Source: Candidatus Chisholmbacteria bacterium RIFCSPHIGHO2_01_FULL_52_32 | GTDB taxonomy: Bacteria; Patescibacteriota; Microgenomatia; UBA1400; Chisholmbacteraceae | Reading direction: 5' to 3' | NCBI GenBank assembly: GCA_001816585.1 | Contig: MHCJ01000007.1 | Span: forward strand, 2,062 to 66,061 | DNA: 64,000 nucleotides | Translations under genes and position numbers: made by a program | Shown: positions 12,698 to 63,233 of the stretch, in pieces | Numbering within the stretch: the stretch's first letter is position 1 | Layout of the letters: each line of letters starts with the position of its first letter | The notes under the pieces: model-generated | Told to the model about the DNA's origin: nothing | The model's input: only the letters and a program-made list of their open reading frames with translations | The model's database searches: none

Positions 12698-12728
12698 AAA
12701 AAAACCGCCTCTTAAAGCGGTTTTCTTG
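12698..12728 (+). terminator. intrinsic terminator AACCGC-loop-GCGGTT plus T-run
   Basis: follows the stop of 11726..12655; preceded by an A-run, so possibly bidirectional. Confidence 0.55.
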
Positions 12729-12756
12729 TTTCTTGTTTCTTGTTACTCCTGACAGC

Positions 12757-12828: not shown

Positions 12829-14345
<1,517 letters not shown>

Positions 14346-14393
14346 AAATTTGACGCAGTCAAATCCGCCAACTGGCGGACAGACCACGTCTGA

Positions 14394-14574: not shown

Positions 14575-15906
14575 TTAATTCTTCTCGGATGAATCTTTTG
14601 ATACTTGCTGCTCAACGATAATGCCGCCTCCCAAGCATTCATCTCCGAGATAAAACACCGCTGCTTGCCCTGGAGCGATTCCCCGCTGGGGCTCAGCAAG
14701 TTCCACAAACAACTTTGAATTTTTCACTTTTAACTTTGAACTTATCAGCTCTCCTCCGTGTCTGATTCGCACCTGTAACCCTTTCATGACTGTTAATTCT
14801 TCATTCTTGATTCCGTTGATGAAATGAAGGTCGGCTACCTGAAATTTATCGCGGAATGTTTCTGCTCCAAATCCGACAATCAGCTGATTCCGAACAACAT
14901 TTTTACCCACCACATAGAATGGCGGTATCGCATGTCTCAACTTGTCACTTGTTACTTGTACCTTGTTGCTGATACTGAACCCATGCCTCTGTCCGATCGT
15001 GTAGAACCAAACACCTTTGTGCTTTCCAATAACATCCCCATCGGTATCGACCACATCACCGGTCTTCTCGTTGATTCTGCGCCGTAAAAACTCGCCGACA
15101 TCGACTTCTCCGACAAAACAAATCCCGACCGAGTCTGGTTTATCCGCAGTCAATAACCTACGTCTCTTCGCCTCTCGCCGAACCTGTTTTTTTGTCAGAT
15201 GTCCGACCGGAAACAAAACGTGAGCCAACTGCTCCTGCATTAGCGGGTAGAGGAAATAACTCTGATCTTTCTTGGCATCAATTCCCTGTAAAAGATGATA
15301 CATTCCGATTCCATCTCGGTTGTGGTGAGCGGGGAGACGAACAAATTTGCGCTGGTCACCCAGACCAGGCATATCGCCTGGAAAGACTTCCGGTTTGGCT
15401 CGAAGTTTCGAACGCAATCGTTGGTGACCAAGCAAATTTCCGTTCGGCGACCTCAGCTCACCGAATCCTATCCTCGCGTAATGCCCTGTTGCTACATAAT
15501 CAAACCCGTGGTTCAAAGCCCATCGCAAGAAGAGCCCGAATTTAATCTCCCGATTGCACACCACATCCGGATTCGGCGTCCGTCCAGCTTCGTACTCGCG
15601 ATAAAAATACTCGATGACCTTCTTCCGGTATTCCTTCTGAAAATCCAGCACCTGAAATGGAATCCCAAGCCCAAGGGCTACGCTCAATGCATCCTTCCGA
15701 TCCTCCGGAGCCCGGCACCCCGGTTCATTCCAACACTCAAGGAAAACACCGGTAACATCATAGCCTCGCTCCACAAGCAAAGCCGCCGAAACCGAGGAAT
15801 CTACCCCGCCTGACATACCCACAGCGACACGTCTGCCCTGAACCGTTCCGCCAACTGGCGGATCTGGTTCACGGGCTACTCGAGGGAATTTCTGCCTCTT
15901 CTCCAT
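14575..15906 (-). CDS. mnmA: tRNA-specific 2-thiouridylase MnmA
   Basis: 443 aa; PP-loop SGGVDSS; conserved NPDVVCN and GHYAR motifs; about 30-aa N-terminal extension. Confidence 0.9.
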   Translation of the reverse strand: MEKRQKFPRVAREPDPPVGGTVQGRRVAVGMSGGVDSSVSAALLVERGYDVTGVFLECWNEPGCRAPEDRKDALSVALGLGIPFQVLDFQKEYRKKVIEYFYREYEAGRTPNPDVVCNREIKFGLFLRWALNHGFDYVATGHYARIGFGELRSPNGNLLGHQRLRSKLRAKPEVFPGDMPGLGDQRKFVRLPAHHNRDGIGMYHLLQGIDAKKDQSYFLYPLMQEQLAHVLFPVGHLTKKQVRREAKRRRLLTADKPDSVGICFVGEVDVGEFLRRRINEKTGDVVDTDGDVIGKHKGVWFYTIGQRHGFSISNKVQVTSDKLRHAIPPFYVVGKNVVRNQLIVGFGAETFRDKFQVADLHFINGIKNEELTVMKGLQVRIRHGGELISSKLKVKNSKLFVELAEPQRGIAPGQAAVFYLGDECLGGGIIVEQQVSKDSSEKN

Positions 15907-17921: not shown

Positions 17922-19382
17922 TCAAGGTAGGTCAACTGGCTGCAAATCCAACCGAAAGTAAACTTCATTCACTATCGTCCTCGCCCATTCGTTGAGTCGA
18001 TTGTGCGTTCCGTCCAAAATCGTTCGTCCGAACACCAATTTTCCGCAGCGAAGGTGTGGCTTCACCAAATCTCCCCTCCTTGGCACCCCATCGGTAAGCA
18101 CAAACTCATCAGGATGTTGTATATCAAGCGGTGTCACTCCCTCCCTCACCCACTCGACTCCAAACTTTTCACTTTTCACTTTAAACTTTGAACTTAACTT
18201 ATAGACTCCCGCCTTCAAATCACCTTTCACTTCTGCCCACCGTTCCGGATCCTTATTATGTAAGACCAAATGCGCCCCCTCCTTCGGCGCCTTCAACGAT
18301 CGATCAACCGCTGCAAAGTCCATCGTATAGTTGATGTCCAAGAACTCTAAAAGCTGGAACACATCAAATGGGATTTCCCCCTTCTGGAGCTGAAGAAACG
18401 AATAGACCGGGAACGCTCCGGTGTAGCGCGGGTTGATCTCATTGGGATAAACCTTCCCTGACTTAGCATCAATCATCAAATCCACCCCAAAAACACCTTT
18501 GTACCCCTGATGCGCCATCGCTTCACCCAGGTTTCTGGCAATCCGCTCCGCCCCTTTCTGTATCGCTGAAGAATAATGTCGGAAGCTCCAATCGTGTCCC
18601 CGCCAGATTCCCCGCCGCTCCCTCAGATTCACAAGCTCCGGAACATCAAGAATCTGCGTCTGCACCAAACCAGTTAACACTCCGTACCGAGTTACACAAC
18701 CCGTTATCGACCCAGAAATCCCATCAATGAAGCGACTGACGTTCACCAACTGCGTTCGAGAAAGATCCAATCGCCCTTTTGCATCCTCCAAAAATGTCCG
18801 AAAGTCAGAAATATCATTGATAAAATACGTTCCTTTTCCTCCACCTTCCGAGAAACTCGTAAGCTGAAACACCAACTGCCTCCCTAGCCTCTTCCTTAGC
18901 CTCCGGTAGTCATCCTCGGTAAATTTCTCAACCTCCCACTGCTCCCCCGGGATTGGAGCCAGTCCGAGTCGTCTAACCAGTGTAAAGAACGCATCCTTAT
19001 CCTCAAACTGATCCCGGATCGCCCGCGGATTGGCAAGAAGCAGCCATCCTTGCTCCTGACAAAACCGATCCACCCACTCCGTATGCTTATAGGAAAAGAC
19101 GGCTATCTTCCCCAGGCTTTGCAAATACCGTAAAACCCCGGGATGCTTAAGAATGGCCTGCGTGTTGAGTTTTTCAACCTCATTTGGAGAGAAGTCGCGC
19201 TGCACTGCTCGGATCGGGCAAAACCGCTTCAGGAAAGAGAGATCGCTCCCCCACTTGTAGCAGACAATCTCGTAGTTTGATGTCACCAAAGCCGGAGAAA
19301 TCCTCCCAAACGCCGTCAGTCCAATTCCCACAATATGGCGCCCTGCCCCATCAAGAAGCTTACAGTAATCCTGAAATTCCAT
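17922..19382 (-). CDS. large ATP-grasp superfamily enzyme (pre-ATP-grasp plus ATP-grasp core)
   Basis: 486 aa; the segment GVFGVDLMIDAKSGKVYPNEINPRYTG is typical of the ATP-grasp C-terminal subdomain. Confidence 0.7.
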   Translation of the reverse strand: MEFQDYCKLLDGAGRHIVGIGLTAFGRISPALVTSNYEIVCYKWGSDLSFLKRFCPIRAVQRDFSPNEVEKLNTQAILKHPGVLRYLQSLGKIAVFSYKHTEWVDRFCQEQGWLLLANPRAIRDQFEDKDAFFTLVRRLGLAPIPGEQWEVEKFTEDDYRRLRKRLGRQLVFQLTSFSEGGGKGTYFINDISDFRTFLEDAKGRLDLSRTQLVNVSRFIDGISGSITGCVTRYGVLTGLVQTQILDVPELVNLRERRGIWRGHDWSFRHYSSAIQKGAERIARNLGEAMAHQGYKGVFGVDLMIDAKSGKVYPNEINPRYTGAFPVYSFLQLQKGEIPFDVFQLLEFLDINYTMDFAAVDRSLKAPKEGAHLVLHNKDPERWAEVKGDLKAGVYKLSSKFKVKSEKFGVEWVREGVTPLDIQHPDEFVLTDGVPRRGDLVKPHLRCGKLVFGRTILDGTHNRLNEWARTIVNEVYFRLDLQPVDLP

Positions 19383-22544: not shown

Positions 22545-22688
22545 GAGACCAGGCAATTGGCACCGGACACTCACAACCTATTTCTCTCTCATGTTACAAT
22601 CTCCCCGCAAGAGTAGCAGTCATCCATTTGCTATTTGCCATTAGCCATAAGCTATACGCTATAAGCTATCTGCAATCTGCATATTCCT

Positions 22689-29854: not shown

Positions 29855-30042
29855 GGAACTGGTTTCAAGACTCTGCAGGTACTCTGAAACTTGGGTTCAG
29901 CTTTCTTAAGTAATTGTGAGTTTTGAAACGACTTAACTTTAACAAATTATTGTTCTCATAGATGCGGCCGCACATTTGACAACAATATTTATCGTAAACA
30001 TATATGGAATAACCAAAGGATCAACCCTTTGAGGTGTGCTTT

Positions 30043-30063
30043 CAGTCTTCAGTCTTCAGTCTT
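30043..30063. repeat. heptamer tandem repeat (CAGTCTT)x3 spanning the stop codon of the GT4 gene
   Basis: perfect 3 copies; the TGA stop lies inside the repeat. Confidence 0.8.
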
Positions 30064-31197
30064 CAATTGCCTCCTCGTAAATCCGAAACAGCTTCTTTTG
30101 CATAACAGATAGACTGAAATGCGCAAGGTAGCGCCGCCGAGCCGCCTGCCCCAACCTCCCTCTTAAGTCCGCGTCCAAAACTAGCCGTTCAAGTGCCTCC
30201 GCCAAATCGCCCACGCTTCCAGGCCGCACCAACAACCCCGTCTGTCCATCAACGACCATCTCGGGCAACGCTCCCAGCCGTGAGGCCACCACAGGAATCC
30301 CAAAGCTCATCGCCTCACAAACTACCAGGCCATACCCTTCAGCCTTCGGCGGAACATGGACCAAGATATCCGCCGCCGGGTAAAACTCCGAAACCAGCCG
30401 GTCATAGGAAACAAAATCATGCTGCGTAATCCCGTAAGATTTGTCATTTGTCATTTGTAATTTGTAATTTTTAGGCACCGGTCCCAAAATCGTCAACCGC
30501 ACCGTATCTCCCAACATCTCTCTCACTTTCCGGTATGCCTCCCACAAAATCATTCCCCCCTTCCGCTCAAACCACACTCCGGCAAAAAGTAGTCGAACCG
30601 GACCAACCTTTCGAACCGAAGGTTCCGCTCGATCCGATAGGCCCGGATAGATAACCGCGATTTTTGCGGGATCAGCTCCCAGTGCAATATGCTCCTGTTT
30701 GGCAAACTCACTCATCACCAAGAGTTTCGAGAAATTGCCCAGGGAAAGATCCTGGTCATAAACGGAAAGGAGGGAATGCATCGCCCGCCGCAATCCGTAC
30801 GTAGCCTCGATGCGAAGCCTTCCCTGACCAAAGTATTGAGAAAGCCCCCAACGATTGGGGATACTGTCCCCCATGACCACGGGAATGTGTCGCAAAGACC
30901 CCGAAAGCCGAAGTGTATACGCATGGCAGTGGACAAGATCGAACTTCCCCAAAATCTCAACATCAACGGTTCCTGCCGAAAGGGGCAGGATACGAAACTT
31001 CACCAGCGTCCGAAGAAAAGCGTGGAAGGAGCCATACCGAACCTCCCCCTTCTTAAGCGCGTCCGTATGGTGCACGTACGTCACGCCGGGTGGCGGATTG
31101 GCAAGCAGCGTCCGGGTATAGGTATTCTCCCCACCCATCAGAAACTTGAGGTTCAAAGGAACATCTGGATCGAGCGGTGAAATCAAAAGCACCCGCA
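30056..31197 (-). CDS. GT4 (group 1) glycosyltransferase
   Basis: about 380 aa; EGYGLVVCEAMSFGIPVVA motif; start assigned to ATG MRVLLISPL, with an alternative GTG at 31213; carries an internal heptamer tract. Confidence 0.85.
30439..30473. repeat. in-frame heptamer tract (ATTTGTC)x2 (ATTTGTA)x2 ATTTTTA inside the GT4 coding sequence
   Basis: 5 consecutive 7-mers encode the NYKLQMTNDK linker; the unit length is not divisible by 3. Confidence 0.8.
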
Positions 31198-31223
31198 TAA
31201 TAAAGCGCAGCACTCTGCTCTCT

Positions 31224-31272
31224 GCTATTCGCTATTCGCTATTCGCTATTCGCTATTCGCTATTCGCTATTC
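31224..31272. repeat. perfect heptamer tandem repeat (GCTATTC)x7 in the divergent intergenic or 5' region
   Basis: 7 perfect copies plus degenerate CTCTGCT flank copies; lies 10-30 bp upstream of the GT4 start codon on the minus strand and about 80 bp upstream of the rmlD-like gene. Confidence 0.9.
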
Positions 31273-31351
31273 GCTTTCAATCATATCCTATCAGACCAAC
31301 CAATAATCGTCTTTCTTGTCATACCCAGGGAAAGTATGCTACCCTGCCGCT

Positions 31352-32254
31352 ATGCGCATCCTTCTCACCGGCTCAAACTCGCTCCTCGGAAAAGCGCTTT
31401 GGGAAACAGCTCCGAAAGTATCCTCTCTCATCCTCACCTTCCTCCCTTCCGCTGAGCCAAGCCAAACACGATGGGAAACAGCACCGATGGATATCACCGA
31501 CAAAGCTGCGGTGAAACACACCCTCGCCCGCTTCAAACCCGATTGGATCATTCATTGTGCCGCCCTGTCCGATGTCGATTCCTGCGAGAAAAACCCCGAC
31601 CAAGCCTATGCCGTCAATGTCTTCGGCACGGAGAACCTCGTGAACACGGCAAAAAAGGCTGGCTTACGCTTTCTCTTTACCTCCTCAAACGGTATTTTTG
31701 ACGGTAAACGCACCCTCTATACCGAACGCGACAAGCCCCATCCGCTGCATACTTACGGAAAAACGAAGCTTGAAGCCGAACAGCTCATCACTCGCTCCAA
31801 AGTCCCATCCATAATCGTCCGTCCGAACGCCATGTATGGCTGGCCCCCCGTTGGTGCCCGCCAAAACCCGGTCACCTGGGCAGTGGAGCAGTTGAGTGAA
31901 GGCATCACCCTCGATATGGTGAGCGACACCTTCATAAGTCCGCTCTACGCGCCATCAGCGGCAGAGGCTATTTGGAAACTCGTTAAGACCGACACAAGAG
32001 GCATATACCACATCGCAGGGAAAACCCGCGTCAGCCGTTTTACGTGGACGAAGGAGATCGCCAGGGTTTTCGGCTTCAACCCCTCCTTGGTCCGGCCGGT
32101 AAAAAGTGGTTTCTTTCCGAACCTCGCACCACGCCCAAAAGACACCTCATTCTCAACTGCCCGCCTTGAACAAACCATCGATTGGAAGCCGCTCACGCTG
32201 AAACAGGGACTCATGAGAATGAAAAAAGAGTCAGATCAATTGCTCCACTGTTAA
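31352..32254 (+). CDS. dTDP-4-dehydrorhamnose reductase-like (RmlD family) NAD(P)-dependent sugar reductase
   Basis: N-terminus MRILLTGSNSLLGKAL with a Rossmann GxxGxxG; RmlD-like length; an alternative upstream ATG at 31316. Confidence 0.7.
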   Translation: MRILLTGSNSLLGKALWETAPKVSSLILTFLPSAEPSQTRWETAPMDITDKAAVKHTLARFKPDWIIHCAALSDVDSCEKNPDQAYAVNVFGTENLVNTAKKAGLRFLFTSSNGIFDGKRTLYTERDKPHPLHTYGKTKLEAEQLITRSKVPSIIVRPNAMYGWPPVGARQNPVTWAVEQLSEGITLDMVSDTFISPLYAPSAAEAIWKLVKTDTRGIYHIAGKTRVSRFTWTKEIARVFGFNPSLVRPVKSGFFPNLAPRPKDTSFSTARLEQTIDWKPLTLKQGLMRMKKESDQLLHC

Positions 32255-32308
32255 ATTGTTAAATTGCTGTAGTGAAAAAAACAATAGAACAATACAACAA
32301 TAAAACAG
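32252..32308. promoter_or_regulatory. operator-like motif pair TTAAATTGTTAAATTG ... AACAATAGAACAAT
   Basis: same bipartite motif recurs at 38426..38497; directly upstream of the GTG start of the 32316 gene. Confidence 0.45.
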
Positions 32309-32315
32309 TCAGACG

Positions 32316-33347
32316 GTGAAGAAACAGTTCATTGCGAACAAAAGAGCTGAGGTTGAGTTTCGCACTCGGCTTCAAGAGGGTGCGTACGTAAGCCGCGAGC
32401 CGAGCGGCAATGAACTCCTCTCCGAACTCACGAAACGGGTAGAAAAAGCAAGAATCATCTTCCGTGCGCACGAACAGGAAACCAGCTTTTCTCCATTCCT
32501 TGAGATCGGGGCCGAGCGCGGCCAGCGTTCCATGCTTCTTGCGTCGGAATTCCGCGCCCAAGGATTCATGCTCGATCTCTCCCTTGACAGCCTACGGGAA
32601 GCCGAAGCGCTGCGCCGCCCCCTGAAGCTCAATAAAATCCCGCAAAGCGTCGTAGCCGATGCCTACAACCTTCCTTTTCCAAACAATTCGTTTGCCTTCA
32701 TCATTGCATTCCAGACCATCCACCACTTTCCTGATCCCGAACCTATCCTCCGGGAAGTCAATCGGGTCCTTGCCCCCGGAGGAGTATTTATCCTCGACGA
32801 AGAACCGATTCGCCAAAGCTTCAACGTGCGCCTTTGGCGAAGGCCGACCATACTTCGCTGGTGGGAAAAGATACTTAAAGCAACTATCCTCCTCCACTTC
32901 CTCTCCGAAATCGGAAAAAGCGAAACCGATGCCGGCATTATCGAGACATCATTCAGTCTTCCTACTTGGGAAAAGGCATTGAACGTCTTCGAAACAGCAA
33001 AAGCCGCCCTCACCGTCTTCCCATTCGGACCAACCGAGACAATATCCAAAACCGGTCAAGAAAAATGGCTTAATCCTTCATTGCCAACCCGAATCCTCCT
33101 CAAACTTCTTGGGGGGAACATCCAAGCCATCTGTACAAAATCTCCTAATAAGCGAAGAAGCTACAAGCTACAAGCTAAACATCTGCTCCCACCATTCGTC
33201 TGTCCTTCCTGCCCTCCCCACCCGCTATTGGAACAACGGCTGGGGAGCTGGTATTGCCTAACCTGCAAAAATACCTATCCTGTTAAAGACGGCATCCCGA
33301 TCCTGATTGAACGCACACTCCGCCAAACCCTATATCCTAATGCCTAA
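32316..33347 (+). CDS. class I SAM-dependent methyltransferase with a C-terminal Cys4 zinc-ribbon
   Basis: 343 aa; LEIGAERG motif I, LPFPNNSFAFI, LAPGGVFIL; C-terminal CPSC...CLTC. Confidence 0.8.
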   Translation: MKKQFIANKRAEVEFRTRLQEGAYVSREPSGNELLSELTKRVEKARIIFRAHEQETSFSPFLEIGAERGQRSMLLASEFRAQGFMLDLSLDSLREAEALRRPLKLNKIPQSVVADAYNLPFPNNSFAFIIAFQTIHHFPDPEPILREVNRVLAPGGVFILDEEPIRQSFNVRLWRRPTILRWWEKILKATILLHFLSEIGKSETDAGIIETSFSLPTWEKALNVFETAKAALTVFPFGPTETISKTGQEKWLNPSLPTRILLKLLGGNIQAICTKSPNKRRSYKLQAKHLLPPFVCPSCPPHPLLEQRLGSWYCLTCKNTYPVKDGIPILIERTLRQTLYPNA

Positions 33348-33366
33348 ACCCTACATCCTAATGCCT
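33325..33366. repeat. 21-bp tandem duplication AAACCCTAYATCCTAATGCCT x2 spanning the stop of one gene and the start of the next
   Basis: two copies with one mismatch; each copy contains an in-frame ATG for the downstream GT2. Confidence 0.85.
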
Positions 33367-34230: not shown

Positions 34231-36090
34231 ATGAATATTGCTATCGTCTCCGCAGGTTTAAGCACCCATTCTGGCCTCCGCGCCCCAATTGAGCTTGCCA
34301 AGGCCCTCAAAGCCCTCGGCCACCAAATCACGTTCTATGCTCTCTCCAAAGGAAAAGACAACCCGGCAGTCAACGATCTTCGAAGAACAGGGATTCGCGT
34401 TTCCGTCGTAAACGCCCGGTCTCTGCTTACACAAATCCTAATCCTGAAAAAAAAGCTTGAGGCTGGCAATCATGACATTATTTCGGCACACTGTTTCGTA
34501 AGCCAGCTCCTGGCTGCGCGCCTCACAGGTATCCCGGTCGTTTGGACCTACTACGGCACCCAGTTAAACGTCCTTCGCGAACACGTGTTCCCAACCAAGA
34601 ATACGGTGATTGACACAATCGATAGCCTCCTCAACCTGACTATCCGCCTCAAAACGCAAGCAATGGCTTGGCTGGCCGACGAAATCCTGTCGATTAGCAA
34701 TAGCGCAAAGCAGGAGCTTAAAAAGCTCTACGGCCGCAAACCCTTTGCCACCGTCCCCCTCGGCTCCGCCCCACCATCCTTCACAACAAAACCGCTTTCT
34801 CTCTCTCTACGCCCTACGCCCTACGCCCTAAGCCCTAAAATCATTCTCTCCGTCAGCCGTATCACTCCCTACAAAGGCTTTCATCTCCTCATCAGAGTGG
34901 TAAACAGGCTTTCAAAACGCATTCCCGATCTGAAACTTGTGATCGTCGGCTCTGCCCCCCTTCCCCGGTATCTCTCCTACCTTAAAAAAATCTCCGGTTC
35001 CTCTGTGGAAATTATCGTCAATCCAAGTGACGCCAAACTGGTCACGCTTTTCCGACAAGCCAAAATCTACGCGACGGCGGATGAGTACCTGTTCTACGGA
35101 CTCCCGATTTGGGAAGCCTCATCATTTGGCATCCCCTCTGTTGCACTCAAACGCAAAGCCGCTTCCGAAGCGATCGTTCACGGAAAAACCGGCTTTCTTG
35201 CAAAAAACGAGGCTGATCTCGAAGAGTACCTCGAACGGTTACTTACGAATCCAAAACTCTGTCAGCGTATGGGGGAAAAAGCCAGAGAACTCGCTTCCCA
35301 TCGGACCTGGGGAAAAACCGCCCGAAGCTACGAAGGGATACTCCGACAAGTCCTGACCAAACTCTATCTCCCCCTGATCCCGACGGGCTTCTATAGCCTA
35401 ATGAAAAATCTTCAAACGCAAAGAAACCTCACCCTTGCCGACCTCGGATCAGATACGGGAATGAATCTTAAGATTCTGGGAAAACTTGATCTCCTCCGCC
35501 CCATCGCCAAGTTGATAGCTGTCGACATCGATACCAAAAATCTCAAACCCCTCGCCAGAGAAGATCCCAAAGTCCAAATACTCCAAGCGAACCTCACCAG
35601 CCTAAGAAGGGTCCCGAAAAACTCCGTTAACACCATAATCTGTACACAAGTCATTGAACACATTGAAAATCAACAAAAAGCGCTCTCGGAAATTGCCAGG
35701 GTTCTCAAACCGGGAGGAAAGCTGTTCTTAAGTTCGGTTGCAAAAAAATGGTATGGCCTCTACTGGCACAACAATAAAAAGGGAAAAATTGTCGTCCACC
35801 CAGACCACGTCCATGAATTCAGCAGTGTTGAGGAGTTTATTGACCTGATTCAGTCATCAGGACTAACCGTGATCAGATCTGAGCAACTTCCGGGTAGGTT
35901 TCCGCTTTTTGATTACTTCCTTCGTGCGATAAACCTTCTTGCAGGAAAACCAACTTCAGCCGAACACCGGGATTTCTACCTAAAACATCCTCGCCTCATC
36001 CGCTGGCACAAACATCTTTCCTTCCTTCCCATCCCCGGATACTCGATTGTTGAGGCACTCGCTCAAAAACCAATGAGGGAACAGAAATAA
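34231..36090 (+). CDS. GT4 glycosyltransferase fused to a C-terminal class I SAM methyltransferase
   Basis: 619 aa; GT4 region residues 1-370, then the MTase motif DLGSDTGMN...VLKPGGKLFL; contains a (CTACGCC)x3 tract. Confidence 0.8.
   Translation: MNIAIVSAGLSTHSGLRAPIELAKALKALGHQITFYALSKGKDNPAVNDLRRTGIRVSVVNARSLLTQILILKKKLEAGNHDIISAHCFVSQLLAARLTGIPVVWTYYGTQLNVLREHVFPTKNTVIDTIDSLLNLTIRLKTQAMAWLADEILSISNSAKQELKKLYGRKPFATVPLGSAPPSFTTKPLSLSLRPTPYALSPKIILSVSRITPYKGFHLLIRVVNRLSKRIPDLKLVIVGSAPLPRYLSYLKKISGSSVEIIVNPSDAKLVTLFRQAKIYATADEYLFYGLPIWEASSFGIPSVALKRKAASEAIVHGKTGFLAKNEADLEEYLERLLTNPKLCQRMGEKARELASHRTWGKTARSYEGILRQVLTKLYLPLIPTGFYSLMKNLQTQRNLTLADLGSDTGMNLKILGKLDLLRPIAKLIAVDIDTKNLKPLAREDPKVQILQANLTSLRRVPKNSVNTIICTQVIEHIENQQKALSEIARVLKPGGKLFLSSVAKKWYGLYWHNNKKGKIVVHPDHVHEFSSVEEFIDLIQSSGLTVIRSEQLPGRFPLFDYFLRAINLLAGKPTSAEHRDFYLKHPRLIRWHKHLSFLPIPGYSIVEALAQKPMREQK
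34807..34841. repeat. heptamer tract (CTACGCC)x3 CTAAGCC CTAAAAT inside coding sequence
   Basis: encodes LRPTPYALSPK; the same TACGCCC unit recurs at 51036-51050 and 55281-55300. Confidence 0.8.
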
Positions 36091-38405: not shown

Positions 38406-38425
38406 TTTAAGAATTGTTGTATTGC

Positions 38426-38497
38426 TAAATTGTTAAATTGTTAAAACAATAGAACAATGAGCGAGCGCTAGTGAGCGATAACAATAGAACAATGAAC
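38426..38497. promoter_or_regulatory. operator-like motif cluster: TAAATTGTTAAATTGTTAAA, then AACAATAGAACAATGA twice (19 nt apart), the second overlapping the start codon
   Basis: shares the 14-mer AACAATAGAACAAT with 32279-32292. Confidence 0.45.
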
Positions 38498-42027: not shown

Positions 42028-42720
42028 TCAAAAGGATTGATAAGGCTTATTCCCAAAGATATAGAGCGTCCCGCAGAGCTTTTTAAAGGGAAAAAACAAC
42101 GGGCCGCGAAACACCGGGAAATTCCACTGTTCAAGTGTACGGCGAACTCCGGGAAGGGGCGGAAGCCCGTGAAGGATGGCTCCTTGAACACGTAAATCAC
42201 GAAATCCAGCCTCGAAAAGACGTTTCGCCCAGTAGCGGGATGCACGAACGTTCACATGCGTAGGGTCATCAGGAAAAATCCTCGTCGTCACCGATCGTAG
42301 CCAACCCTGGTGGTTTGGCGTCGTGATGAACAGGACGCCGCCTGGCCGGAGCACACGAAAGGCTTCGGAAAAAAGAAACATCGGAGAATGAAGATGTTCA
42401 ACAACATCAAAAATTGTTATTGCATCAAACCAATCATTTTTAAATGGAAGCCGTTGGCGAGCCACGTCTACCTTCTTAAGGACACCGTGTACTCGCCTTC
42501 TGGCTTGAGCCAGTGCGTATCCGGAAATATCAACTCCAGAGACTTTAGCCCCCCTCTTTTGCACAGAAGATAGAAAGTCCCCAAAGCCGCACCCGACATC
42601 TAACACGCGTCGCAAAGAAGCAACCTTTTCAAACAGGATCTCCGCACGGGCTTTGGAGATGAGTTCCCCCTCTCTCGATGCGTTATAAATCCGCTCAAAA
42701 TATTCCCGACCATAGTTCAT
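42028..42720 (-). CDS. class I SAM-dependent methyltransferase
   Basis: 230 aa; VLDVGCGFGDF motif I, DVVEHL, LRPGGVLFITTPN. Confidence 0.85.
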   Translation of the reverse strand: MNYGREYFERIYNASREGELISKARAEILFEKVASLRRVLDVGCGFGDFLSSVQKRGAKVSGVDISGYALAQARRRVHGVLKKVDVARQRLPFKNDWFDAITIFDVVEHLHSPMFLFSEAFRVLRPGGVLFITTPNHQGWLRSVTTRIFPDDPTHVNVRASRYWAKRLFEAGFRDLRVQGAILHGLPPLPGVRRTLEQWNFPVFRGPLFFPFKKLCGTLYIFGNKPYQSF

Positions 42721-42813
42721 AGGGTATAGGGTATAGGGTATAGGAATTAGGGTTTAGGAATTAGAAATTTGATGTCATTCGTACTGTAATTTGTTATTTG
42801 TAATTTGAAATTT
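42721..42813. repeat. two heptamer tracts: (AGGGTAT)x3 plus 4 degenerate AGGNNTT units, then (GTAATTT/GTTATTT/GTAATTT/GAAATTT)
   Basis: begins at the nucleotide after the ATG of the methyltransferase (minus strand), so it occupies the RBS and promoter region. Confidence 0.85.
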
Positions 42814-42834
42814 GTCTCCCCCTCACCATCCTTC

Positions 42835-45798: not shown

Positions 45799-45931
45799 TA
45801 AGCCTTTTTAATTGCTATATTGTTACATTGTTCTACTGTTGGTAGATCAAAGATTGAGTGTTTTCAACAATATAACAGTGAAGCAATATAACAATATCTC
45901 TTTGTCTCCAATCCCTCCCTCTCCTACCTCC

Positions 45932-50990: not shown

Positions 50991-51065
50991 CCTCTCCTCT
51001 CCTCTCCTCTCCTCTCCTCTCCTCTCCGCTCCGCTCTACGCCCTACGCTCTTAGCCCTCTACCCT
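50991..51065. repeat. pentamer (CCTCT)x7, then CCGCT x2, then heptamers CTACGCC CTACGCT CTTAGCC CTCTACC in a convergent intergenic region
   Basis: perfect pentamer run; heptamers are of the same TACGCCC family as 34807 and 55281. Confidence 0.85.
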
Positions 51066-55216: not shown

Positions 55217-55236
55217 TCTCTATTCGTAAATCATAA

Positions 55237-55300
55237 ATCCTAAATCATAAATCACTCTCTACCCTCTGCTCTACGCGCTAAGCCCTACGCTCTTCCTGTA
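55237..55300. repeat. heptamer tract AAATCAT AAATCCT AAATCAT AAATCAC, followed by TACGC-type heptamers
   Basis: 20 bp upstream of the GT2 start on the minus strand; the downstream part encodes the SVGLSA C-terminus of the epimerase. Confidence 0.8.
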
Positions 55301-60266: not shown

Positions 60267-63233
60267 ATGAAAGAAGATAGTCATAAGTGTCGATGGATGT
60301 TGTATGATTGGAAGTCTAATCGGCAAAGTACTCCGATGGAAAAATCCCACTTTAAAAAAAACCCAGGGATAAGATCACCCAACATCAATCTCACTCACCT
60401 TGCTATCTTGCTTGTAGTGGCGTTGGCATTACTTTCTCCCTTGCTTCTCCCAGGTTTTCCCCAAACCCACGACGGCGATCAACATTTCGTTCGCACCGCC
60501 CATTTCTTCCATGCCGTGAAAGAAGGGAATCTCCTCCCTTCTTGGGCCGGAACGCTAAACAGCGGATTCGGATCCCCTGTTTTCCTCTATAATTGGCTCC
60601 TCCTCTATTACCTCTCAATCCCCTTCCTCCTGTTGAATATCCCGGTCGTCTCAACGATCAAGCTCCTCATTACTGCCTCATTCTTCCTCTCAGTGCTCGG
60701 ATTTTTCCTTTGGGTAAAATTCCTCTATAACAGCCGCTCCGCCTTCGTTGCCAGCCTGTTTTACCTTACCTCTCCGTACCATCTCTACAACATCTACACC
60801 CGCGGCGCCTTCGGCGAAGTCATGGCATTAAGCCTCCTCCCCTGGCTTTTTTTCTCAATCTCACGCCAGCTGTTTTCTGGAGTATTCAAATATTTCCTGG
60901 CAACTACAGCGCTCCTTGTCATGCTCATCCTCGCCCACAATCCGACCGCCCTTGTAGCTATTCCTCTCCTTGCCGCATACTCACTGGTGCTTTCCTGGAA
61001 AAGCAGAGAAAAAACGGTTCATGTCTTTCTGACCATCCCTCTCGCCCTCTTTCTAACCGCGTTCTTCTGGCTCCCGGCAGCGGTCGAAATGCCCTACACC
61101 AAGCTCCCTCAGGCGGTGGCCAGTCTTTATGAGAGCCATTTCCTTGAAGCTGATCGCTTCGGAACACCACAGAAAGCAACGGAACTAACAATCACAACCT
61201 TTCCACAATTGAGTCCAACGAAACCGTTCCTTCTCCCGTTATTTCGCATTACCTACATCCTTTTTTCGCTTGTCAGTGCAGTCGGAATCGCCCAAGTCGC
61301 CGCAGCCACAATCGCCATCTTCATCGTAACTAAAAACCGCAATAACAATCAGAACCGGAAAGTTGAACTCTTCTTTATCGCAACCTTCATCATTGCTTTC
61401 TTTCTCGCAACCAGTCCTTCAGCTCCTATCTGGCGCTTGATCCCCATTCTCCCCCCACTTCTCTATCCATGGAGGCTCCACGGGATAGCATCACTTGCTG
61501 CCGCACTGCTATCCGCAACCCTTATACGAACTCCCAGAAAGACAAGAGTGGCACTGATAGCCCTTTTGGCCGCGACCGCAATCCTCCTTGTCACTCGGGC
61601 TCTCCCTGCACAGAAAACCTTTCCGACGTTTACCGATGCTTCCCTCGTAAGAAGCCAGGAAAGTACCGACAGTACGGGGGTCTATTTACCTCGCTGGGCT
61701 CCTGCTCTCAGCGATCTGCCCTCCCAACCTCCACAGGATATTGCTTTTGTAAAAGACGGGAAACTCGAAACGCTCCTCATGGAACGGGGCGTTTCTCGCC
61801 TGCGATTCCGCGTCAAGAGCAAAAAAGCGACCGAAATCATCGTCAACACCTTTTTCTTCCCGGGTTGGGAAGGCTTCATCGATCGCATTCCAACGCAAGT
61901 CAGCCCCAGTGGCCAGGGGAATATCGCCATCTCTATACCAGAAGGTGAGACTGAGGTGGAACTTCGATTCACGAAAACCGAAATCCGAAAAACAGCAATA
62001 GCTGTCACAAACCTGACATTACTGGCCCTGGGAATAGGCGTGATTTTCCGCGTCTTATCTCGGGTTAACAATAAAAAGAGGCTCGGAGCTGTCCTAATGC
62101 TCATCCTCACAACGATCCTGGGTAGCGAGGCCGCAACCAGACTTGTCATCGGCGATTCATTCGCCACCACTTGCTTCAAGCGTGATCAGATCCTCCACCA
62201 CATCCCCAAATTGAATGGAACGTGCTCCTATTCGGATCCCCACAGTTCCGAAGCGAAGGTGAACGTCCGCTTCTCAAGCGTTGGAACCCGCGGAGAAGAA
62301 ATCACAATTCCCAAACCCCTGGATACATATCGAATCCTTCTCCTCGGAGACTCAACCACCGCAGCCATCAACGTGAACTACGAAGACGCCTTCGGGGAAA
62401 AACTCGAACGGCTGCTCCAACTAACATTCCCCAACAAAACAATTGAGGTGGTAAACGCCGGTGTTCCTTCTTACTCGGGACTTCTTGAGTATCTCTACCT
62501 TCGGGAGCGCGGCTTAACCCTCGAACCCGATCTGGTAATTACAAACTTTAATTCCACGGATGTCCACGATGACGCCCGCTATTTCCATCTCGCGAACATC
62601 GCACCGGATGGCACGGTGTTGACGGTCAGTGAGATAACACCGGATACTCCGCTCATAAAAAAACTCCATTGGGCCATCTTCAATCGCTCGCGTCTCTACG
62701 GACACCATCTCCAATTTTGGCTTATCGGACTCAAGGATAGATTACTCCCTCAAAAGCCTCTCGTACAAACCACAGAAAAAACCGAATTCGGTCAGTACGA
62801 AGCCGACTTCCTCGTCGCCCTCAGAGAAGATGTGCGACCGAACTACCAGGCCATTTGGCACTGGCCTCGTAAAAGTCTCAAGCTCCTCCACGCGCTCACA
62901 AAGAAACACAACATTCCCCTTGTCATCTCCCTTTTCCCCTTTCCACTGCAGGTGAATGGCCGGGAATGGATAAGCAGAGAGCGCATGGGTTTTGAACTCG
63001 GAAAAACCTATTCCACCAGGGACCTTGAGATGATGGAATCCCTGGCAAAAGAGGAAGGCATACCGGTCGTCAATTCTGTCGAAGCCTTCAGGAACTCACA
63101 GGAATTCCCCTTGTTCTTCCCCGAGGACATTCACTTCACTCCCGCCGGGCACGCGGTTTTTGCCCAAACGATAGCCACGTACCTGTTGGAACACAGAAGA
63201 CAGCTTGGGCTTCCGCCCACACCCCAACTATGA
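60267..63233 (+). CDS. polytopic GT-C/PTPS-related-like membrane domain fused to a C-terminal SGNH/GDSL-hydrolase-like domain
   Basis: 988 aa; N-terminal segment HDGDQHF...LPSWAGTLNSGFGSPVFLY with about 12 TM helices; C-terminal LLLGDSTT (GDS block) and a DxxH-like end. Confidence 0.7.
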   Translation: MKEDSHKCRWMLYDWKSNRQSTPMEKSHFKKNPGIRSPNINLTHLAILLVVALALLSPLLLPGFPQTHDGDQHFVRTAHFFHAVKEGNLLPSWAGTLNSGFGSPVFLYNWLLLYYLSIPFLLLNIPVVSTIKLLITASFFLSVLGFFLWVKFLYNSRSAFVASLFYLTSPYHLYNIYTRGAFGEVMALSLLPWLFFSISRQLFSGVFKYFLATTALLVMLILAHNPTALVAIPLLAAYSLVLSWKSREKTVHVFLTIPLALFLTAFFWLPAAVEMPYTKLPQAVASLYESHFLEADRFGTPQKATELTITTFPQLSPTKPFLLPLFRITYILFSLVSAVGIAQVAAATIAIFIVTKNRNNNQNRKVELFFIATFIIAFFLATSPSAPIWRLIPILPPLLYPWRLHGIASLAAALLSATLIRTPRKTRVALIALLAATAILLVTRALPAQKTFPTFTDASLVRSQESTDSTGVYLPRWAPALSDLPSQPPQDIAFVKDGKLETLLMERGVSRLRFRVKSKKATEIIVNTFFFPGWEGFIDRIPTQVSPSGQGNIAISIPEGETEVELRFTKTEIRKTAIAVTNLTLLALGIGVIFRVLSRVNNKKRLGAVLMLILTTILGSEAATRLVIGDSFATTCFKRDQILHHIPKLNGTCSYSDPHSSEAKVNVRFSSVGTRGEEITIPKPLDTYRILLLGDSTTAAINVNYEDAFGEKLERLLQLTFPNKTIEVVNAGVPSYSGLLEYLYLRERGLTLEPDLVITNFNSTDVHDDARYFHLANIAPDGTVLTVSEITPDTPLIKKLHWAIFNRSRLYGHHLQFWLIGLKDRLLPQKPLVQTTEKTEFGQYEADFLVALREDVRPNYQAIWHWPRKSLKLLHALTKKHNIPLVISLFPFPLQVNGREWISRERMGFELGKTYSTRDLEMMESLAKEEGIPVVNSVEAFRNSQEFPLFFPEDIHFTPAGHAVFAQTIATYLLEHRRQLGLPPTPQL

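What the first reader, a model, noticed from the sequence alone, without database searches (positions are those of the whole stretch)
30439..30473. Heptamer repeat tract inside the coding sequence of the GT4 glycosyltransferase
ATTTGTC ATTTGTC ATTTGTA ATTTGTA ATTTTTA on the plus strand encodes a KNYKLQMTNDK linker of the minus-strand GT4. Gain or loss of one 7-bp unit would shift the reading frame and truncate the enzyme. This is a translational phase-variation switch.

A second heptamer run (CAGTCTT)x3 sits at the stop codon of the same gene (30043-30063).
Basis: partly seen in the sequence, partly recalled or inferred. Interest (0 to 1): 0.65.

Follow-up and report, generated by a model that had tools for sequence, protein, structure and literature searches.

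The report
In-frame heptamer microsatellite in a glycosyltransferase
The 7-base repeat inside this glycosyltransferase gene is real and would break the gene if it gained or lost one unit, but it is one of many such repeats scattered through this tiny groundwater bacterium's genome, housekeeping genes included, and nothing shows that it acts as an on/off switch.

Summary
Window 30439-30473 holds five 7-nt units (ATTTGTC x2, ATTTGTA x2, ATTTTTA). They lie in frame in a minus-strand GT4 glycosyltransferase of a Candidatus Chisholmbacteria (CPR/Microgenomates) genome and encode KNYKLQMTNDK. A second perfect heptamer array spans the stop codon.

A change of one or two units truncates the enzyme at 246 or 253 aa. 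The "phase-variation switch" reading is not demonstrated:
- The tract is short and imperfect.
- It is identical in six independent assemblies, and 15 contigs carry the same full-length protein.
- No truncated allele of this population's protein was among the listed database hits.
- Ortholog clusters at 90% identity or more never differ in tract length.

Period-7 arrays are enriched across the window (9 perfect arrays against 0.1 expected). Most are intergenic. Others sit in frame in the housekeeping gene mnmA, an ATP-grasp gene and other transferases.

The GT4 site and both mnmA sites carry heptamer arrays with different units in orthologs down to about 41-60% identity. That implies slippage-driven turnover over long periods.

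Best reading: a lineage-wide heptanucleotide microsatellite tolerated in a surface connector helix. Its frameshift liability is a by-product. Read-level data are needed to exclude low-rate switching.

The parts
30439..30473 (-). Heptanucleotide microsatellite, five imperfect units (coding strand TAAAAAT TACAAAT TACAAAT GACAAAT GACAAAT), in frame, encoding KNYKLQMTNDK.
30056..31198 (-). GT4 (GT-B, retaining-type) glycosyltransferase CDS, 380 aa, identical to P0121 (OGY17658.1 / OGY20561.1, Candidatus Chisholmbacteria).
30041..30065 (-). Perfect heptamer array (coding strand GAAGACT x3.6) spanning the TGA stop codon. It places a TGA in all three frames. An array sits at the same place in ortholog L026 (ATGACTG x4.6).
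31224..31275 (.). Perfect (GCTATTC) x7.4 array, 26 nt upstream of the GT4 ATG, in the intergenic region between the divergent GT4 and RmlD-like genes. It is the longest perfect array in the window. Orthologs L026 and L027 also have arrays upstream of their GT4 start.
14711..14743 (-). In-frame heptamer array in the mnmA C-terminal barrel (SSKLKVKNSKL).
14940..14967 (-). In-frame heptamer array in the mnmA PRC-barrel domain (NKVQVTSDKL).
18162..18195 (-). In-frame heptamer array (AAGTTNA family) in an ATP-grasp protein (SSKFKVKSEKF).
33158..33177 (+). In-frame (AAGCTAC) x2.9 array between the methyltransferase domain and a C-terminal Cys-rich tail (SYKLQAK).
33325..33366 (+). Two copies of a 21-mer built from three heptamer variants, spanning the methyltransferase stop and the start region of the next GT2 gene.
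34807..34837 (+). In-frame (CTACGCC) x4.4 array in the inter-domain linker of a GT4-methyltransferase fusion (LRPTPYALSPK).
42719..42815 (.). Cluster of three intergenic heptamer arrays (ATAGGGT, TAGGAAT, TGTAATT). The last uses the same ATTTGTN unit family as the GT4 tract.
22624..22669 (.). Two adjacent intergenic heptamer arrays (CCATTTG, AGCTATA) about 20 nt upstream of a GT gene start.
55227..55254 (.). Intergenic (TAAATCA) x4 array between two minus-strand genes.
12722..12744 (.). Perfect (TTTCTTG) x3.3 array about 90 nt beyond the 3' end of the 16S rRNA gene.
61972..61991 (+). In-frame (CGAAAAC) x2.9 array in a 988-aa ORF (TKTEIRK).

Best explanation
The tract is a genuine heptanucleotide microsatellite. 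It belongs to a class of period-7 arrays that pervades this Chisholmbacteria genome and its Microgenomates relatives.

The arrays most likely arise and turn over by replication slippage. This step is inferred. It is the mechanism proposed for the heptamer SSR excess seen in many bacteria.

Most arrays lie in the small non-coding fraction of the genome, next to gene starts and stops. A minority survive inside genes, where the encoded peptide is structurally tolerated and only in-frame alleles persist. In this GT4 the array encodes the short surface helix between strands beta233-238 and beta257-260 of the donor-binding Rossmann domain. This is the most length- and sequence-variable part of the protein family.

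The present allele has five imperfect units with no more than two identical neighbours. It is fixed in the sampled population. It behaves as a slowly evolving, partly decayed microsatellite. Its capacity to frameshift is a mutational liability shared with arrays in housekeeping genes. It does not look like a dedicated expression switch.
For: - Period-7 excess: 9 perfect arrays against 0.1 expected. TRF lists 18 period-7 arrays, 10 of them in the 11% of the window outside genes.
- Across about 500 kb of CPR loci, period 7 is the commonest period: 61 arrays with 45 distinct units, 67% A+T, about four times the density in the non-CPR loci.
- Equivalent in-frame arrays occur in mnmA (two sites), an ATP-grasp gene, a methyltransferase and a GT4-methyltransferase fusion.
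- mnmA orthologs L071 and L072 carry period-7 arrays at the same two sites with different units (autocorrelation 0.46-0.74).
- At the GT4 site, 7 of 42 distinct ortholog linkers have period-7 autocorrelation of 0.57 or more, above all ~60 control segments from their own gene. Six more keep remnants. Units differ: ACAAGCT x5.1, ACATCRG x6.6, CGCTCAG, GAAAGTT, CAAAGTT, AAATGTC.
- Upstream and stop-codon arrays are also conserved in position in L026 and L027.
- AlphaFold model: mean pLDDT 91.3. Residues 243-251 form a helix between two strands, and the pLDDT of 78-80 there is the lowest in the C-terminal domain. The alignment shows this segment is hypervariable in length and sequence.
- Stability: six assemblies are 99.96-100% identical with no gaps, and 15 contigs carry the identical protein. 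There is no length variation within 90% clusters.
- Literature: the heptamer SSR excess and the polymerase-slippage idea, plus arrays conserved in position but variable in sequence between Xanthomonas species (PMC4692102); heptamer arrays that overlap stop codons and sit at ORF peripheries (PMC4679880).
Against: - Arrays remain periodic at the same site in orthologs only 41-70% identical. That implies ongoing slippage, so single-unit (frameshifting) events must occur at some rate. Population heterogeneity below the consensus level cannot be excluded.
- L001 carries a perfect five-copy array, and L002 a 6.6-copy array that is out of frame.
- The gene lies in a surface-glycan cluster, which is the classic setting for contingency loci.
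- The slippage origin is inferred. No slippage event between close relatives was observed.
- Some unit families recur (AAGTTN, ATTTGTN), which pure random seeding does not obviously predict.
Confidence: 0.62

Rival explanations
1. The tract is a true contingency locus. Slipped-strand mispairing changes the unit number at a biologically useful rate. This switches the GT4 between full-length and truncated (246 or 253 aa) forms and varies a surface glycan, as heptanucleotide repeats do for NeuO in E. coli K1.
For: - A change of one or two units truncates the enzyme at once, and a change of three units restores the frame.
- The gene lies in a large glycan-biosynthesis cluster.
- Orthologs carry longer, purer arrays at the same site: x5.1 perfect in L001 and x6.6 in L002.
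- L002 is frameshifted within the array.
- Long persistence of periodicity implies continuing slippage.
- A perfect x7.4 array lies 26 nt upstream of the start codon, and two contigs end inside it.
- NeuO is a precedent (PMC13001214).
Against: - No more than two adjacent units are identical.
- The sequence is identical in six assemblies and on 15 contigs, and no truncated allele was among the listed database hits.
- No length variation occurs within 90% clusters, including the perfect five-copy array in P0011/P0126.
- 40 of 42 ortholog linkers are in frame. The L002 gene has also lost its last ~80 codons, and it sits on a k=31 contig where a 46-nt repeat can be misassembled.
- The same kind of array occurs in mnmA, where switching would have no obvious use.
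- NeuO shows 3-53 copies with 65.6% of genomes OFF (PMC13001214). Nothing comparable is seen here.
Confidence: 0.17
2. The arrays have a sequence-independent cis function at the DNA or RNA level. Examples would be binding or spacing elements near gene boundaries, three-frame stop modules, or preferred recombination junctions that allow module swapping in glycosyltransferases. The intragenic GT4 array would be retained for that reason.
For: - Arrays are conserved in position upstream of the GT4 start, inside the gene and across the stop codon in orthologs, while their units differ.
- The stop-codon array supplies TGA in all three frames, as described for TAACTGA arrays (PMC4679880).
- L001 and L004 are 97-100% identical up to the array and only 65-75% identical beyond it, with synteny lost downstream.
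- Small palindromic elements have inserted inside the arrays of several orthologs.
Against: - There are 45 different units among 61 arrays, so no common motif exists for a binding factor.
- The L001/L004 comparison has other identity breaks away from the array, and it is a single case.
- The promoter-like hit at the tract is at chance level: 3 found against 1.3 expected.
- There is no Rfam match at the locus.
Confidence: 0.12
3. The periodicity is a by-product of selection for a particular peptide, such as a lysine-rich amphipathic helix, and not a DNA-level repeat process.
For: The segment is predicted to be helical. Many orthologs have K-hydrophobic-K patterns there.
Against: - Perfect DNA repeats such as (ACAAGCT) x5.1 cannot arise from selection on the peptide.
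- Peptides differ completely between orthologs: KNYKLQMTNDK, DKLQATSYKLQAM, RSLSAQRSALSL, KNIRHKTSDIRH.
- Identical array types are abundant in non-coding DNA.
Confidence: 0.04

Closest known systems
NeuO O-acetyltransferase of E. coli K1 (CUS-3 prophage): intragenic heptanucleotide (AAGACTC)n phase variation
   Same: A 7-nt unit repeated inside the coding sequence of a surface-polysaccharide-modifying enzyme. Only copy numbers that keep the frame give a full-length protein. The repeats are translated into a peptide (PMC13001214).
   Different: NeuO has 3-53 perfect copies in the 5' region. 65.6% of 64 complete genomes are out of frame, and mixed populations were measured (PMC13001214). Here there are five imperfect units in the middle of the C-terminal domain, with no copy-number variation and no OFF allele in this population.
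Genome-wide heptameric SSR over-representation in bacteria (Mrazek et al. 2007, as cited in PMC4692102; GGGAATC arrays in Xanthomonas, GGGGAYT and STRR arrays in Nostoc/Calothrix)
   Same: Period 7 is specifically over-represented and mostly intergenic. Arrays lie between the same genes in related genomes but differ in length and sequence. Polymerase slippage is the proposed cause (PMC4692102).
   Different: Those systems are dominated by one or a few unit sequences, some of them G-quadruplex-forming. This lineage uses dozens of unrelated, AT-rich units. It also keeps in-frame arrays at conserved sites inside housekeeping and transferase genes. No such report for CPR bacteria was found.
TAACTGA direct repeats of marine Beggiatoaceae, Cyanobacteria and Bacteroidetes (PMC4679880)
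   Same: Heptamer arrays of 2-6 copies, mostly just upstream of start codons. Some overlap the stop codon of the upstream gene and give stops in all three frames. Rare intragenic copies lie at protein peripheries.
   Different: That system has a single fixed unit with a suggested post-transcriptional regulator. Here the units are diverse, and intragenic arrays lie in internal loops and connector elements.
Rickettsia palindromic elements (in-frame selfish insertions in protein-coding genes; from my own knowledge, Ogata et al. 2000)
   Same: Repetitive DNA tolerated in frame at surface positions of otherwise conserved proteins, including essential ones. The palindromic 30-42-nt inserts inside the ortholog arrays (L004, L026, L045) resemble this most closely.
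   Different: The window's tract is a tandem microsatellite. It is not a palindromic mobile element, and no copy of the ortholog insert occurs in the window.

Membership tests
SSR-mediated translational phase-variable gene (contingency locus, NeuO type) | Tandem repeat with a unit length not divisible by three, inside the ORF, so that unit gain or loss shifts the frame. | tested here: met
   Five 7-nt units lie in frame. A change of one or two units gives products of 246 or 253 aa.
SSR-mediated translational phase-variable gene (contingency locus, NeuO type) | A long, near-perfect tract able to slip at high frequency. | tested here: not met
   TRF gives 4.6 copies at 96% matches, but no more than two identical units are adjacent. 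NeuO arrays reach 3-53 copies, commonly about 20 (PMC13001214).
SSR-mediated translational phase-variable gene (contingency locus, NeuO type) | Copy number differs among closely related strains or assemblies. | tested here: not met
   Six assemblies are 99.96-100% identical to the window with no gaps. 15 contigs carry the identical protein. No length variation occurs within five multi-member 90% clusters. This is consensus level only.
SSR-mediated translational phase-variable gene (contingency locus, NeuO type) | Out-of-frame (OFF) alleles are common among sequenced genomes. | tested here: not met
   No truncated high-identity fragment appears among the listed hits. 40 of 42 distinct ortholog linkers are in frame. 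The exceptions are a decayed copy on a k=31 contig and a non-repeat sequence.
SSR-mediated translational phase-variable gene (contingency locus, NeuO type) | Within-population mixture of repeat lengths (reads or colonies). | not testable with these tools
   No read data are available. Two contigs end inside the upstream x7.4 array, which is ambiguous.
SSR-mediated translational phase-variable gene (contingency locus, NeuO type) | The gene product acts on a surface or variable structure. | tested here: met
   It is a GT4 inside a cluster of GT2, GT4, RmlD-like, methyltransferase and PMT_2 genes.
Lineage-wide heptanucleotide SSR excess (long-SSR class of Mrazek et al., via PMC4692102) | Period-7 arrays significantly over-represented relative to shuffles and to neighbouring periods. 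| tested here: met
   9 against 0.1 expected in the window, with little or no excess at periods 4-6 and 8-12. 61 arrays in 500 kb of CPR loci, about four times the non-CPR density.
Lineage-wide heptanucleotide SSR excess (long-SSR class of Mrazek et al., via PMC4692102) | Arrays concentrated in intergenic DNA near gene boundaries. | tested here: met
   10 of 18 arrays lie in the 11% non-genic DNA. Two more span stop codons.
Lineage-wide heptanucleotide SSR excess (long-SSR class of Mrazek et al., via PMC4692102) | Arrays at the same genomic positions in related genomes, with differing length and sequence. | tested here: met
   This holds for the GT4 upstream, internal and stop arrays in L026 and L027, the GT4 linker in 13 orthologs and the mnmA sites in L071 and L072.
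Single-motif heptamer systems (TAACTGA, GGGAATC, cyanobacterial STRR) | One dominant unit sequence across the genome. | tested here: not met
   45 distinct canonical units among 61 arrays. The commonest unit occurs four times.
GT4 retaining glycosyltransferase (GT-B fold) | Two Rossmann-like domains, the Glycos_transf_1 C-terminal domain, and a conserved E-x7-E motif. | tested here: met
   Pfam PF00534 E=3.8e-27 and PF13439 E=1.8e-6. The AlphaFold model has pLDDT 91. Foldseek matches 7qsg, 3c4q and 2gej at E of 1e-18 to 1e-19. E287 and E295 are invariant in 28 sequences (EGYGLVVCE).

The most novel reading that the evidence does not exclude
Heptanucleotide arrays in Chisholmbacteria and related Microgenomates may be long-lived hypermutable modules conserved in position. 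Some sit inside glycan-synthesis genes, some in their promoters and some across their stop codons. Together they would give these regulator-poor, ultra-small bacteria stochastic variation of surface glycans. They might also serve as junctions for swapping glycosyltransferase modules. That would be the first contingency-locus system described in the candidate phyla radiation. The GT4 tract would be a low-activity member, and the upstream (GCTATTC) x7.4 array the more active one.
Probability: 0.12. Interest if true: 0.75.

Novelty: new member of a known kind. Interest (0 to 1): 0.38.

Why it matters
On its own, the tract is an ordinary if tidy example of a coding-region microsatellite, and calling it a switch would be premature. 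The wider pattern deserves a note. A CPR lineage has a strong excess of period-7 repeats with many different units. Arrays persist at the same codon positions of orthologous proteins, including the housekeeping enzyme MnmA, while their unit sequences turn over. This bears on three things: how microsatellites are born and maintained under frame constraint, the mutational load that tiny genomes tolerate, and annotation quality. Assemblers and gene callers can break or frameshift genes at these arrays. If read-level data showed real length heterogeneity at the glycan-gene arrays, it would be the first evidence of phase variation in CPR bacteria.

Tried and rejected
- L002 frameshift. I took it at first as an OFF allele. 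It was downgraded because the same gene copy has lost its last ~80 codons to unrelated sequence, and because the contig is a k=31 Logan assembly in which a 46-nt repeat can be misassembled.
- Contigs L068 and L070 end inside the upstream x7.4 array. This could hint at heterogeneity. It is equally explained by k-mer length (L068) or by low coverage of a 1.6-kb contig (L070), so I did not use it as evidence.
- Internal promoter. A TTGACG-18-AAAAAT match overlaps the tract on the coding strand, but the scan found 3 hits against 1.3 expected, which is chance level.
- Structured RNA. Rfam at gathering threshold found only a 16S rRNA and one tRNA in the window, and nothing at the locus.
- Mobile palindromic element. 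The 30-nt insert inside the arrays of L004 and L026 has no copy in the window even with 3 mismatches. Among all loci the exact 22-nt core pattern searched matched only L004 and its duplicate L029.
- A single common heptamer motif or binding site was rejected by the unit census.
- Peptide-level selection as the cause of periodicity was rejected because of the perfect DNA repeats and the intergenic arrays.
- Literature searches for heptamer repeats or phase variation in CPR or Patescibacteria found nothing relevant. The primary Mrazek 2007 paper is not in the held library, so it is cited only through PMC4692102.

Full report
**1. What is in the sequence**

TRF scores it as 4.6 copies of a 7-nt unit with 96% matches.

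The tract lies in a minus-strand ORF, 30056-31213. The real start is almost certainly the ATG at 31198. That start gives the 380-aa protein beginning MRVLLISPL, which is identical to database protein P0121. On the coding strand the units are TAAAAAT TACAAAT TACAAAT GACAAAT GACAAAT. They encode (P)KNYKLQMTNDK(S), residues 242-254.

The protein is a GT4 glycosyltransferase on three grounds:
- Pfam matches Glycos_transf_1 (E=3.8e-27) and Glyco_transf_4.
- A confident AlphaFold model (mean pLDDT 91.3) matches solved structures of MshA, PimA and BshA at E of about 1e-18 to 1e-19.
- The E-x7-E glutamates are invariant in the alignment.

It has 3.6 perfect copies, GAAGACT on the coding strand. It spans the TGA stop codon and places a TGA in all three frames.

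**2. Is it more than chance?**

Yes, but mainly because the whole window is rich in period-7 arrays. Perfect period-7 arrays of 2.5 copies or more occur 9 times, against a mean of 0.1 in shuffles. Neighbouring periods show little or no excess.

TRF lists 18 period-7 arrays. About 89% of the window is genic. Even so, 10 of the 18 arrays lie in the non-genic 11%, two span stop codons, and seven are fully inside genes.

**3. Organism and context**

The closest proteins come from Candidatus Chisholmbacteria and other Microgenomates of the candidate phyla radiation. The gene sits in a large cluster of GT2, GT4, RmlD-like, methyltransferase and PMT_2 genes. The window also holds a 16S rRNA gene and a tRNA.

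**4. Consequences of slippage**

Removing or adding one or two units leads straight into a TGA inside the array. The products are 246 or 253 aa long and lack most of the donor-binding domain. A change of three units keeps the frame, giving 373 or 387 aa.

**5. Where the peptide sits**

In the model, residues 243-251 form a short helix between strands 233-238 and 257-260 of the C-terminal Rossmann domain. The pLDDT there is 78-80, the lowest in that domain. The segment is a surface connector within a domain. It is not an inter-domain linker. In the alignment of 28 family members it is the most variable segment in both length and sequence.

**6. Orthologs**

I extracted the DNA between conserved anchors in about 50 loci. 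Many orthologs carry a heptamer array at the same place, with other units:
- (ACAAGCT) x5.1, perfect, in L001
- ACATCAG/ACATCGG x6.6 in L002
- CGCTTAG/TGCTCAG in L027
- GAAAGTT, CAAAGTT and AAAAGTT types in L010, L047, L049, L039 and L008
- AAATGTC in L045

Of 42 distinct linker sequences, seven have a period-7 autocorrelation of 0.57-0.76. That exceeds every one of about 60 control segments from their own gene. Six more keep clear remnants.

L026 and L027 also have arrays upstream of the GT4 start. L026 has one across its stop codon as well, mirroring the window.

Periodicity would decay at this level of divergence (41-70% amino-acid identity). The arrays must therefore keep turning over by slippage, or keep being reborn. 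This is an inference.

**7. Tests for switching**

Several results argue against an active switch.

- Six independent assemblies from several samples are 99.96-100% identical to the window, with no gaps, over as much as 21 kb. That span includes this tract, the x7.4 upstream array and several other arrays.
- Fifteen contigs carry exactly the full-length protein.
- No high-identity N-terminal fragment appeared among the listed hits of a search of 5.8 billion protein clusters.
- Within the ortholog clusters at 90% identity or more, linker length never differs. This includes P0011 and P0126, which differ at about ten residues elsewhere but share the perfect five-copy array.
- Only L002 and L062 are out of frame. 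L002's gene has also lost its last ~80 codons and lies on a k=31 contig. L062 has no repeat.

The benchmark heptamer switch NeuO behaves very differently. It has 3-53 copies, and 65.6% of 64 complete genomes are out of frame (PMC13001214).

All of these are consensus-level tests. They cannot exclude low-frequency heterogeneity within cells of the population.

**8. The housekeeping control**

The same type of in-frame array occurs twice in mnmA, the tRNA 2-thiouridylase gene (SNKVQVTSDKL and SSKLKVKNSKL). It also occurs in an ATP-grasp gene (SSKFKVKSEKF), a methyltransferase and a GT4-methyltransferase fusion.

MnmA orthologs show heptamer-type peptides at both sites. The DNA of two of them, L071 and L072, is period-7 at both sites with different units.

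Position-conserved heptamer arrays are therefore a property of the lineage. They are not specific to surface-variation genes.

**9. Nature of the arrays**

Across about 500 kb of CPR loci, period 7 is the commonest tandem-repeat period, with 61 arrays. They use 45 distinct units and are 67% A+T.

This differs from the single-motif heptamer systems:
- TAACTGA arrays (PMC4679880)
- GGGAATC arrays and cyanobacterial STRR (PMC4692102)

It fits the general heptamer SSR excess attributed to polymerase slippage (Mrazek 2007, as cited in PMC4692102). I found no paper describing this in CPR bacteria.

**10. Verdict**

The tract is a real heptanucleotide microsatellite, tolerated in frame in a surface connector of a GT4. 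It can frameshift, but it is short, imperfect and fixed in the sampled population, and it has close analogues in a housekeeping gene.

The phase-variation reading remains possible at low probability, about 0.17, and needs read-level data. The more interesting result is the lineage-wide pattern of heptamer arrays that keep their position while their units turn over, including arrays at gene starts and stops.

Side observations are listed separately. They include a recombination boundary that coincides with the array and small palindromic in-frame inserts inside ortholog arrays.

Noticed in passing
window 31224-31275: Perfect (GCTATTC) x7.4 array, 26 nt upstream of the GT4 start codon, in the divergent intergenic region shared with the RmlD-like gene. 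It is the longest perfect array in the window and a better candidate for variable expression than the intragenic tract. Two independent contigs (L068, L070) end inside it, but copy number is identical wherever it is spanned.
   Followed up: partly
window 14711-14743 and 14940-14967 (mnmA); 18162-18195 (ATP-grasp): In-frame heptamer arrays of the AAGTTNA and ACAAGTN families lie inside a housekeeping tRNA-thiolation enzyme and an ATP-grasp protein. MnmA orthologs L071 and L072 have arrays at the same two sites with other units.
   Followed up: yes
L004 10730-10800, L026 3798-3866, L045 2590-2662, L006/L038 linker: Small palindromic elements of 30-42 nt have inserted in frame inside the heptamer arrays of several GT4 orthologs. 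One example is CCTCCTTCGCTAAAGCTACGGCGGACAGGG, which encodes SSFAKATADR. Close relatives P0009 and P0010 differ by its presence. This recalls the in-frame Rickettsia palindromic elements. No copy occurs in the window.
   Followed up: partly
L001 1-1900 versus L004 9600-11500: A mosaic GT4. The DNA is 97-100% identical up to just before the array, then 65-75% identical, with synteny lost downstream. P0124's C-terminal part is closer to P0002 than its N-terminal part is. The array coincides with a recombination boundary, but other identity breaks exist.
   Followed up: partly
window 42785-42815: An intergenic array (TGTAATT/TGTTATT/TGAAATT) of the same ATTTGTN unit family as the GT4 tract, 12 kb away. 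It is part of a cluster of three arrays at 42719-42815.
   Followed up: no
window 50991-51036: (CCTCT) x9.2 pentanucleotide repeat, followed by CGCTC and CTACGCC-like units, between two convergent genes.
   Followed up: no
window 32249-32307, 38412-38445, 45811-45897: Octamer tandem arrays sharing an AACAAT/ATTGTT core in three intergenic regions of the glycan cluster. They may be regulatory or promoter-associated.
   Followed up: no
window 33325-33366: Two copies of a 21-mer built from three heptamer variants (AAACCCT, ATATCCT, AATGCCT). They span the methyltransferase stop codon and the start region of the next GT2 gene. Public gene calls start that GT2 gene 18 codons downstream of the longest ORF.
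   Followed up: partly
window 14575-15906 (mnmA residues ~150-205): The MnmA here is 443 aa, against about 350-370 aa in most homologs. The main cause is a ~55-aa low-complexity insert after ATGHYARI. Its length and sequence vary widely among CPR orthologs.
   Followed up: no
window 12833-14347 and 12722-12744: A full-length 16S rRNA gene lies on the minus strand, so ORF 12948-13427 is spurious. A perfect (TTTCTTG) x3.3 array lies about 90 nt beyond its 3' end.
   Followed up: no
window 5235-5408: A run of 9-nt and 27-nt in-frame repeats (CGACGACTC and similar) inside ORF 4729-7065, presumably encoding an acidic low-complexity region.
   Followed up: no
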